A DNA stretch of 64,000 nt. It comes from a virus. Under the pieces are notes generated by a model, which did not search any database, was not told the DNA's origin, and saw nothing but the letters and a program-made list of their open reading frames with translations. Position numbers and translations under genes: made by a program. Below, one piece after another: positions 25,524 to 27,347 of the stretch (positions within the stretch are counted from its first letter, which is position 1; each line of letters opens with the position of its first letter). The stretch lies in the IMG/VR virus record IMGVR_UViG_3300036770_006434, positions 1 to 64,000 of that record. One strand, written 5' to 3'.

Positions 25524-26114
25524 GTTGGGCGAAGAAAAATTACCATCATGAATCCATTCCAGAACATTCGCAATTGGACCCGTAAGGATTTTGATGAGTC
25601 TGACGAAGAAAAGAAGGCCAGAAGAGAGCGGGCGCGTGTTGAGACCGACCACGATCTGCAAAAGCCGGTCCAGCAGCTTTTGTGCGATGTCCACGAAGAG
25701 TCGCTAGCTCCCGTTCCGACGACTAGCGAAGGCGCGGCGATTGTATTCCAGCTCCAACGTTTGATTGGAGCGCAAAAGAGAATGGTTTCGTTGCAGACCG
25801 TAAGCACATTCCAGACGGGACGCACGAATGCTTTAGTGTTTTGGCTCACAGCGATTATTGTTATCCAGACGTTTGTCCTCATCTACCTTACTCTTTACCC
25901 GAGGACCGGACCAAGTCCGGTCTGTCACTGTCACGTAGATGGCGCAGACAAGAAAAGTGCCGATAAAAAGTGACCAAAGAAGCAAGGCCCAGCCCAACAA
26001 GGTGCCAGAGCCAACGGCCACAGCCGTCACGTAGGGGGTAGTTATGAGGTATTCGATCATGATATATGTTATTCTAAAGAACGTTGCCGCTGTGGTCGTG
26101 GCTCATCTTTGACG
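25524..26114 (+). mobile_element. integron-type gene cassette 1
   Basis: Begins at core site GTTGGGC (25524-30); one plus-strand ORF; ends in attC whose R'' GCCCAAC is the exact complement. Confidence 0.8.
25548..25973 (+). CDS. cassette-borne membrane-anchored hypothetical protein (141 aa)
   Basis: ATG 18 nt after the core site; one C-terminal TM (LVFWLTAIIVIQTFVLIYLTL); opposite strand to neighbours. Confidence 0.7.
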   Translation: MNPFQNIRNWTRKDFDESDEEKKARRERARVETDHDLQKPVQQLLCDVHEESLAPVPTTSEGAAIVFQLQRLIGAQKRMVSLQTVSTFQTGRTNALVFWLTAIIVIQTFVLIYLTLYPRTGPSPVCHCHVDGADKKSADKK

Positions 26115-26120
26115 TTGGCC
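25992..26120 (+). repeat. attC site 1
   Basis: GCCCAAC-AAGGT-GCCAGAGC-CA[A]CGGCCACAGC...GCTGTGGTCGTG-GCTCATC-TTTGAC-GTTGGCC; canonical 7-5-8...7-6-7 spacing with extrahelical base. Confidence 0.85.
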
Positions 26121-26356
26121 GAAGAGTGCTTGATGACTTCGCCGTTCCCGTCGCGGACGGACCAGAAGAGGATTTCCAGCGCGTCGAGCTGTTCCTTTTT
26201 CCACCCGATGCGGAGCATCTCAGCCATAATCTGCCCGCAGACAAGAATTCCACGCCGCGTGGGTTTCTTGGCGGCGCGGATGCGTTCCAGTGCTTGCGTA
26301 GCCTCCTCGGCCAACCCGTCGCCAGTGCCAACGCTCGGGACTTGTCCTTTGTTCAT
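26069..26356 (-). CDS. hypothetical protein, antisense within cassette 2
   Basis: Starts in the attC2 loop and stops in the attC1 loop. Confidence 0.6.
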   Translation of the reverse strand: MNKGQVPSVGTGDGLAEEATQALERIRAAKKPTRRGILVCGQIMAEMLRIGWKKEQLDALEILFWSVRDGNGEVIKHSSANVKDEPRPQRQRSLE

Positions 26357-26422
26357 AAATTTTTCCTCCGCTCGCCGCCCTGGGGTTTCTCGCCCGAGCG
26401 CGGCACATCTTTTTCGTTCGGC
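26309..26422 (+). repeat. attC site 2
   Basis: GGCCAAC-CCGTC-GCCAGTGC-CAACGCTCGGG...CCCGAGCGCG-GCACATC-TTTTTC-GTTCGGC; R'' complements the upstream core GTTGGCC. Confidence 0.85.
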
Positions 26423-26784
26423 TTCCGAACGAAACCTTCATGGCTTTCCATATCCAGCGTGAAGGGATGGTGCGGAAAGTTTTCCAAAAGAATGAGACGG
26501 CAGCGGTCGCAGATTCCCTCGTAGTTTTTCACCTCGTTGTGATGTTCCCGGCATCGGGGACATTCCACGAACGCCGGGTTTTCAACTCGGGCCGCCTTCA
26601 TCGCACGATAGTCCGCCTGAATGGCTCGGATGTTGTCGCAGGTCAGAGGCTCCGACGGGAAGGATAGGCGATGATCCCGTGTCTGTGCGGACGTAAGAAA
26701 GCCGAACGAATCGCCAAACACAAGATGCGCGCTGGCACCTTGCAGGGTTGAACTAGAATCTGGGGTGGTGTGCGTCTGTGTCAT
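26353..26784 (-). CDS. hypothetical Zn-finger protein, antisense within cassette 3
   Basis: CPRC...CDRC; ATG inside the attC3 right arm, stop in the attC2 loop overlapping the next ATG (ATGA). Confidence 0.6.
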   Translation of the reverse strand: MTQTHTTPDSSSTLQGASAHLVFGDSFGFLTSAQTRDHRLSFPSEPLTCDNIRAIQADYRAMKAARVENPAFVECPRCREHHNEVKNYEGICDRCRLILLENFPHHPFTLDMESHEGFVRKPNEKDVPRSGEKPQGGERRKNL

Positions 26785-26798
26785 ATCAGGTGTTGGGC
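26701..26798 (+). repeat. attC site 3
   Basis: GCCGAAC-GAATC-GCCAAACA-CA[A]GATGCG...TGCGTCTG-TGTCATA-TCAGGT-GTTGGGC; R'' complements the upstream core GTTCGGC. Confidence 0.75.
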
Positions 26799-27347
26799 AT
26801 ACCCTCATACACCAGACACCACGGTTTGTCCTGTTCAATTATACCTTGTCTCTCCCATTTTTCACGGCAATCCTTGGCGTTATGAATGAAGATAGCCCCG
26901 TTGTCACGCTCTACGGGATGACACCAGCAGGAAGAATTCGCGGAATGAATGGGTTCCGGTCTGCCAAGCGGGATGATATGGGTGTATTGATCCATGTATT
27001 ACTCTTTCTTCCTCCAGTCCCCCACACACCAGATTTTGCCGCCCTTCCGGTCAACACAGAAATCGTGACCGGCAGGCTTGGTCCCGGGCTTCGTCTTTAC
27101 GATGGAGAAAATGATTTCGGGATATTCCCGGGCCAGATCGGCGGTCGGGATGTCCCGCATGGCGTTCTTCAGCTCGTAATCGAAATCCTTGAAATCATGC
27201 GGAATCTCTTCGCTGTCAATCTCACAGGAGTTGTCGATACGGATGTGGCGGACCGGCGGCAGGGGCTTGAATTGGGTCGGATCAGGTGGCATGTAAAGCG
27301 GTTTTTTGAATAGTGCGCGGGGATTAGACCCCGGATTGAATCACTTG

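What the first reader, a model, noticed from the sequence alone, without database searches (positions are those of the whole stretch)
25833..26838. attC loops serve as stop/start junctions of antisense, phage-oriented genes
Seen: cassettes 2 and 3 have no convincing sense ORF but carry minus-strand ORFs that start inside one attC and stop inside the next (26353-26784, 26069-26356; TAA-catatatc-ATG in attC1, ATGA overlap in attC2). A further ORF (25833-26060) starts in attC1. The termini (AVGSGTLLG, NVKDEPRPQ) are translated attC arms. Inference: phage genes have become cassette modules in inverted orientation, so excision or reordering would keep them in the phage transcription direction and swap their termini.
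Basis: partly seen in the sequence, partly recalled or inferred. Interest (0 to 1): 0.75.

Follow-up and report, generated by a model that had tools for sequence, protein, structure and literature searches.

The report
Backwards integron cassettes carrying phage genes
A 190-kb phage with no integrase carries two small phage genes packaged as mobile integron cassettes but facing backwards, each starting inside its own recombination hairpin and borrowing its stop codon from the next site; the same layout is the rule in phage contigs and I could not find it described in print.

Summary
Mostly confirmed. Three attC sites (top strand +) lie in a complete 190,671-bp phage with no tyrosine recombinase.

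Cassettes 2 and 3 carry conserved minus-strand genes: pN/pS 0.15-0.33 and 0.27. Each starts in its own attC and stops in the neighbouring one. Homologues of the cassette-2 gene lose similarity exactly at the crossover (98% before, 38% after), have different tails and co-varying R boxes. Both families also have homologues without the attC-derived ends.

Two corrections. The third ORF (25833-26060) is probably a shadow of cassette 1, an ordinary sense cassette with a Verrucomicrobia homologue. Only C-termini swap, because the N-terminus belongs to the cassette's own attC. An attI-like site opens the array (inferred).

With one attC pattern, flanking genes lay on the attC bottom strand in 65/70 viral sites against 23/90 bacterial sites (31/33 vs 13/48 after clustering).

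This scan noted the same inverted layout earlier in other phages (29 notes). I found no paper describing it; Qi et al. 2023 report phage CALINs but not this polarity. Translation and present-day recombination are untested.

The parts
25477..25526 (+). attI-like entry site (inferred): non-palindromic, ends at the crossover G|TT; overlaps a minus-strand promoter-like match (25507-25480) where an integrase promoter would sit
   Evidence: Local alignment to the site next to the cassette-2 homologue in L265 has 35 of 50 columns identical, reached by 0 of 2000 shuffles; promoter match 9/12. No similarity to the cassette-entry junctions found in 8 intI loci; pattern at chance level in 401 genomes, so the attI label is not confirmed.
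25525..26114 (+). Cassette 1: ordinary sense-orientation, host-type cassette; nearest the entry site, so probably the newest arrival
   Evidence: Its R'' complements its own leading R'; homologues L012 and L013 are followed by top-strand attC sites, L013 in a bacterial chromosome.
25548..25973 (+). 141-aa sense ORF of cassette 1, with a hydrophobic C-terminal helix; faces against phage transcription, so probably silent
   Evidence: 30 homologues besides itself, one named from a Verrucomicrobia bacterium; best coding frame.
25833..26060 (-). 75-codon antisense ORF starting in the attC1 loop; probably a non-coding shadow
   Evidence: Frame has stops and no attC start in L012 and L013. Such ATG-opened frames occur in 11% of bottom-strand frames of bacterial attC sites (23/201).
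25992..26120 (+). attC1 (R'' 25992-25998, R' 26114-26120); supplies the last 14 codons and the stop of gene B
26069..26356 (-). Gene B, 95 aa: residues 1-16 from attC2, conserved three-helix core, tail from attC1
   Evidence: 15 homologues; 120 clusters at E<=0.001; pN/pS 0.15-0.33 with no stops in 8 cores; model confident over about residues 12-80 and poor at both ends.
26115..26416 (+). Cassette 2 (inverted gene B core plus attC2)
   Evidence: Same cassette ends in L008 and L011 with different neighbours; short contigs in run X2 branch at 26114 and 26418 (a hint only).
26309..26422 (+). attC2; its loop holds, on the minus strand, a GGAGG ribosome-binding motif (26369-26365), the stop of gene C and the start of gene B (ATGA overlap)
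26353..26784 (-). Gene C, 143 aa: residues 1-28 from attC3, core with two CxxC pairs (zinc-ribbon-like), last 20 residues from attC2
   Evidence: Two 98-aa homologues match only the core and lack the leader; pN/pS 0.27, other frames stopped.
26417..26792 (+). Cassette 3 (inverted gene C core plus attC3)
   Evidence: R'' at 26701 is the exact complement of R' at 26416.
26701..26798 (+). attC3, weaker or decaying; its L' arm holds the start codon of gene C
26786..26995 (-). Gene D, 69 aa, phrog_2864; stops inside attC3; no attC found at its 5' end

Best explanation
This is a short integron cassette array (probable attI-like entry site plus three cassettes, no intI) inside a phage early-type operon that is transcribed on the minus strand, towards the entry site. 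Cassettes 2 and 3 are phage gene cores captured between attC sites in inverted orientation. The attC that belongs to each cassette sits in front of its gene and supplies the start codon (for gene B also the ribosome-binding site). The gene core has no stop of its own and ends in whichever site follows. An integron integrase supplied in trans, most likely by a Verrucomicrobia host, recombines the folded bottom strand at R', so excision or re-insertion keeps each gene in the phage direction with its own N-terminus and a new, apparently neutral, C-terminal tail. Cassette 1 is a normal host cassette picked up by the same route and probably silent. SHOWN: sites, polarity, purifying selection on B and C, homology breakpoints at the crossover, no integrase in this genome. 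INFERRED: translation, the attI label, host IntI as the enzyme, order of arrival, neutrality of the tails.
For: Gene B: differences from homologues concentrate at third codon positions, pN/pS 0.15-0.33, and no stops occur in 8 cores, while every other frame is stopped in several. Identity over 60 nt before versus 40 nt after the crossover AAC is 0.98/0.38 (L011), 0.87/0.17 (L008), 0.75/0.38 (L010). The attC at the 5' end of the gene is related in the window, L011 and L008, while the one at the 3' end differs, which fixes the crossover at R'. In all six attC-flanked homologues examined the two R boxes are complementary although they differ among loci. A homologue with an identical core sits directly beside a site like the window's array start and ends three residues after the crossover (L265). 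Survey with one pattern: flanking gene on the bottom strand in 65/70 and 58/63 viral sites against 23/90 and 20/80 bacterial sites; 31/33 against 13/48 after clustering similar sites (p 8e-10). Whole cassettes: 135 of 155 viral ones are bottom-coded against 16 of 111 bacterial, and 103 of the 135 have perfectly self-complementary R boxes. An ATG lies inside the own attC in 31/65 viral sites against a null of 11% per frame. No PF00589 match in the complete genome; full IntI in 3 of 50 attC-bearing viral records and 0 of 16 near-complete ones, but in 79 of 251 genomes of the class of an Opitutaceae MAG.
Against: No expression data. No contig joint skipping a cassette was seen in four runs (contigs drop rare variants). 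attC3 is weak and may no longer recombine. The entry frame is not universal (11/2/13 over three frames), and only 23 of 58 incoming viral genes stop inside the attC, so the stop/start coupling seen here is common rather than a strict design. The attI label is unconfirmed. The host is inferred from one named cassette homologue and attC type. Strand calls come from my own codon model, not from curated annotation.
Confidence: 0.8

Rival explanations
1. Relic of a phage-encoded integron: the array was built by the phage's own IntI, since lost (gene 25113-25481 now sits where intI would be), and is now frozen and decaying.
For: The attI-like site with an outward promoter match lies at the expected place. 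Three viral records have intI next to bottom-coded cassettes in canonical geometry (L081, L105, L113). attC3 is degraded and gene D has no 5' attC.
Against: No recombinase remnant at E<=1. Cassette 1 and the tRNA-cluster cassette are host-type, which implies host IntI acted on this genome. Short contigs in X2 hint that cassette 2 sits in a second context with unchanged sequence. This rival is partly compatible with the best explanation: it concerns the origin of the array, not its anatomy.
Confidence: 0.3
2. The genes are not cassettes. attC sites are leftovers of host cassettes that inserted at secondary (attG) sites between phage genes in the silent orientation, and neighbouring genes merely read into them.
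For: IntI inserts cassettes at genomic sites outside att sites (bioRxiv 10.1101/2022.09.11.507474). Gene D has an attC at one end only. Silent orientation would be favoured if host cassettes are anti-phage.
Against: It does not explain the exact R''/R' complementarity around each gene, its co-variation across homologues, or homology ending at the crossover with different neighbours. It may still describe how such cassettes first form.
Confidence: 0.08
3. Polarity was misread: the minus strand is the top strand and these are ordinary sense cassettes.
For: My detector scores both strands similarly at attC1 (16.1 vs 15.3); attC3 folds better on +.
Against: The second extrahelical base is on the left arm of + in all three sites. 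Cassette 1 and its bacterial homologues are sense on + with the same attC orientation. The attC that travels with gene B is the one at its 5' end.
Confidence: 0.03
4. The antisense ORFs are untranslated shadows in ORF-less cassettes.
For: No Pfam, PHROG or GenBank-phage match for B, and no Pfam or PHROG match for C. This reading does fit the third ORF.
Against: Purifying selection in the antisense frame, conserved families, and homologues called inside phage-like operons.
Confidence: 0.03

Closest known systems
CALINs and integrons in phage genomes (Qi et al. 2023, PMC9892861)
   Same: Clusters of attC sites without an integrase in phage genomes; five of six tested sites from virulent phages recombined with IntI1.
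   Different: The paper describes TJE1 and PH101 arrays as typical in structure and notes divergent attC sites in one phage. A text search found no mention of genes antisense to attC, starts inside attC, or tails borrowed from the neighbour.
Canonical integron gene cassettes (class 1 mobile and sedentary chromosomal integrons; Nivina et al. 2016, PMC5027507)
   Same: R''-L''-L'-R' architecture, extrahelical bases, self-complementary R boxes, crossover at G|TT in R'.
   Different: There the gene is on the top strand, upstream of its attC, expressed from Pc; that paper states that cassettes inserted facing the promoter have not been observed in integrons. Here the attC polarity is normal but the gene inside the cassette is inverted, lacks its own start and stop, and is read from a phage promoter on the far side. 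Isolated reverse-oriented cassette ORFs with their own promoters, such as toxin-antitoxin cassettes, are known (own knowledge), but not as the rule.
attG secondary-site insertion of cassettes (bioRxiv 10.1101/2022.09.11.507474)
   Same: A route by which a host integrase can place attC sites in DNA lacking an integron; excision at nearby sites modifies the genome.
   Different: It describes moving existing cassettes, not resident genes becoming bounded by self-complementary R boxes in inverted orientation.

Membership tests
attC site | R'' (RYYYAAC-like) and R' (GTT) boxes with paired L boxes at canonical spacing, 55-141 bp | tested here: met
   129, 114 and 98 bp; 5-nt and 6-nt spacers; (attC3 weak).
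attC site | Extrahelical bases on the R'' arm define the top and bottom strands | tested here: met
   Unpaired base two positions inside the L'' core on the + strand in all three sites (read from the sequence).
attC site | Recombined by IntI as a folded bottom strand | not testable with these tools
   Indirect only: homology breakpoints at R'.
Integron gene cassette | R'' complementary to the R' that opens the same cassette | tested here: met
   3 of 3 cassettes; co-varies in 6 homologues of cassette 2.
Integron gene cassette | Occurs with different neighbours joined at G|TT | tested here: met
   Cassette 2 in L008, L011, L010, L005, L265; not shown for cassette 3.
Canonical integron gene cassette | ORF on the top strand, upstream of its attC, with its own start | tested here: not met
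   Met for cassette 1 only; cassettes 2 and 3 are bottom-coded and start inside their attC.
CALIN | Two or more attC sites with no integron integrase nearby | tested here: met
   Three sites; no PF00589 match in the complete genome.
Complete integron | intI gene | tested here: not met
Complete integron | attI site | tested here: inconclusive
   Conserved non-palindromic site ending in GTT, shared with L265, but not matched next to any intI examined.

The most novel reading that the evidence does not exclude
Phages are a place where new integron cassettes are made: resident phage genes are repeatedly converted into inverted cassettes, trimmed to their coding core and wired to attC-encoded start and stop signals, then shuffled between phages by host integrases. 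Family B, which has members without attC-derived ends and cassette forms leaving the attC in two different reading frames, would be a traceable record of independent cassette births and would make the open question of cassette genesis testable.
Probability: 0.4. Interest if true: 0.88.

Novelty: new variant of a known kind. Interest (0 to 1): 0.7.

Why it matters
How gene cassettes are created is unresolved, and cassette genes are assumed to lie upstream of their attC on the top strand. Here phage genes form inverted cassettes, and versions of the same genes without attC ends survive for comparison. If real, phages exploit the host's integron integrase to shuffle their own accessory genes, and ordinary host cassettes (many are anti-phage) that arrive the same way are silenced by orientation. 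Practically, many short metagenomic phage proteins carry attC-derived termini that are not part of the functional domain, and gene-to-attC assignments made by standard tools will be off by one site.

Tried and rejected
Related loci: searches of viral contigs with B, C, the B alignment and gene 25113-25481 found no relatives, so no sister phage with an empty site was available.

Families and folds: Pfam and PHROG gave nothing for B, C or cassette 1, and GenBank phages gave no match to B. Fold searches of the B model gave no significant match (best E 0.79; best Z 7.2 at rmsd 7, a generic helical bundle). The Atlas gave only unnamed clusters and a weak NinF lead for C. Rfam found nothing relevant.

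Reads: no RNA holder was listed and no joint was seen in contigs; neither is evidence on expression or excision. The alternative-flank sequence from X2 was not in this genome or in viral contigs.

Entry site: the attI-like pattern gave chance-level or unrelated matches.

Tree: the 50-column tree of family B is too weak to order gain and loss of attC ends.

Ideas rejected: a universal entry frame; reading 25477-25526 as an eroded attC, because it has no pairing left arm and is conserved in L265.

Literature: ten searches found no description of inverted phage cassettes; the library lacks most subscription papers.

Full report
Setting. The window is the first 64 kb of a complete 190,671-bp phage record with direct terminal repeats. 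Genes around the finding run on the minus strand. No tyrosine recombinase (PF00589) is found at E<=1, while the control genomes all score. All four runs holding the DNA are subsurface metagenomes of one study.

The sites. Three attC sites lie at 25992-26120, 26309-26422 and 26701-26798, preceded by a lone R' box at 25524. A structural detector I wrote gives the first two 15.3 and 14.5 against at most 11.3 in resampled genomes; the third scores 8.7. In each cassette the R'' box is the exact complement of the R' box that opens that cassette, the usual mark of a cassette that has existed as a circle (established knowledge). That symmetry does not fix polarity. Polarity comes from the extrahelical base inside L'', which is on the left arm of the + strand in all three sites, and from cassette 1, whose bacterial homologues have a sense gene followed by an attC in the same orientation.

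The ORFs. All stated coordinates and junctions are correct. Gene B (26069-26356) has 15 homologues at the 90% level and 120 clusters in the 50% library. They share a core of about 55-60 residues and differ at both ends. Against seven homologues at DNA level, changes fall mainly at third positions, pN/pS is 0.15-0.33, and only the antisense frame is open in all eight sequences. The AlphaFold model is confident for three helices and poor at both attC-derived ends; no fold match is significant. Gene C (26353-26784) has two 98-aa homologues that begin where attC3 ends and stop about where attC2 begins, with pN/pS 0.27. The contig of one of them (L009) gave no attC in my detector. Gene D (26786-26995, phrog_2864) also stops inside attC3. 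The loop of attC2 carries a GGAGG motif 8 nt before the start of B.

The third ORF fails. 25833-26060 runs antisense into a 141-aa sense gene with 30 homologues, one named from Verrucomicrobia. The corresponding frame is stopped and lacks an attC start in both homologous cassettes examined, and 11% of bottom-strand frames in bacterial attC sites have such an ATG by chance. Cassette 1 is an ordinary host cassette.

Mobility. In L011, L008, L010 and L005 the B homologue ends at the same crossover triplet and continues into a different attC arm. Identity drops from 0.98 to 0.38, 0.87 to 0.17, 0.75 to 0.38 and 0.73 to 0.50 across it. The attC at the 5' end of the gene stays related among the window, L011 and L008. 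The R-box pair differs among homologues but stays complementary in all six, and the gene leaves its attC in two different frames, which suggests more than one capture, although the tree cannot order events. In run X2, short contigs join the first 30 nt of cassette 2 to another attC arm at 26114, and the end of attC2 to another cassette at 26418. These records are below the tool's 31-letter bridging bar and come from the source study, so they are a hint of a second context, not proof. No joint skipping a cassette was seen.

Array start. L265 carries a B homologue with an identical core that ends three residues after the crossover, in a site matching window 25477-25526 at 35 of 50 columns (0 of 2000 shuffles). 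The site is not a hairpin, ends in G|TT and overlaps a minus-strand promoter-like match. I read it as an attI-like entry site, which would make cassette 1 the latest arrival. It did not resemble the entry junctions of the eight intI loci where I could locate one, so this is inference.

Generality. One degenerate attC pattern was scanned over viral and bacterial collections, and flanking coding strands were called with a codon model trained on long ORFs. Genes lay on the bottom strand in 65/70 (left) and 58/63 (right) viral sites against 23/90 and 20/80 bacterial sites, or 31/33 against 13/48 after clustering similar sites. For whole cassettes the figures are 135/155 against 16/111, and 103 of the 135 inverted viral cassettes have perfect R-box complementarity. 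A start inside the own attC occurs in 31/65, a stop in the neighbouring attC in 23/58, and entry frames vary, so the tight coupling in this window is common but not obligatory. A full IntI was found in 3 of 50 such viral records and 0 of 16 near-complete ones; where present, the adjacent cassettes are bottom-coded and read towards intI. IntI occurs in 79 of 251 genomes sampled from the class of an Opitutaceae MAG, so a host enzyme is plausible.

Mechanism. Most likely the phage operon is transcribed through the array on the attC bottom strand. Only cassettes with an inverted gene are expressed and kept; each brings its start in its own attC and ends at the first in-frame stop of the next site. 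Host IntI inserts, excises and reorders them, and normal host cassettes arrive silent. The anatomy, selection and breakpoints are shown; translation, the enzyme source and current activity are inferred.

Known versus new. attC clusters in phages are published and functional in assays (Qi 2023, PMC9892861), but that paper does not describe inverted genes, and ten searches found no such description. Earlier unchecked notes of this scan report the same layout in at least 29 genomes; I reached my reading before consulting them and do not count them as evidence. This locus adds homologue-level breakpoints, forms without attC ends and a mixed array. Verdict: new variant of a known kind, interest 0.7.

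Noticed in passing
window 45966-46628: A second, sense-orientation host-type cassette beside tRNA-Arg, with a GAT/ATC core instead of GTT/AAC. Its attC closely resembles that of L012, the homologue of cassette 1. Its top strand is also +, against phage transcription.
   Followed up: partly
window 26838-26865: Minus-strand promoter-like site (10/12) inside gene D that could drive genes C and B; 4 found against 2.0 +/- 1.5 expected, so weak.
   Followed up: no
window 42040-43866: 608-aa TnpB/Cas12f-like protein (PF07282, PF12323).
   Followed up: no
window 55191-58316: DNA polymerase III alpha subunit homologue in a phage.
   Followed up: no
window 45873-51710: Nine tRNA genes, all on the minus strand.
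   Followed up: no
L265:471-809: Core of gene B fused behind an unrelated phage N-terminus instead of an attC leader, directly beside the attI-like site.
   Followed up: partly
L081, L105, L113: Viral contigs with a full IntI next to arrays of bottom-coded cassettes.
   Followed up: partly
L007:5321-7986: Phage-like operon with an MT-A70 methyltransferase among inverted attC-bounded genes.
   Followed up: no
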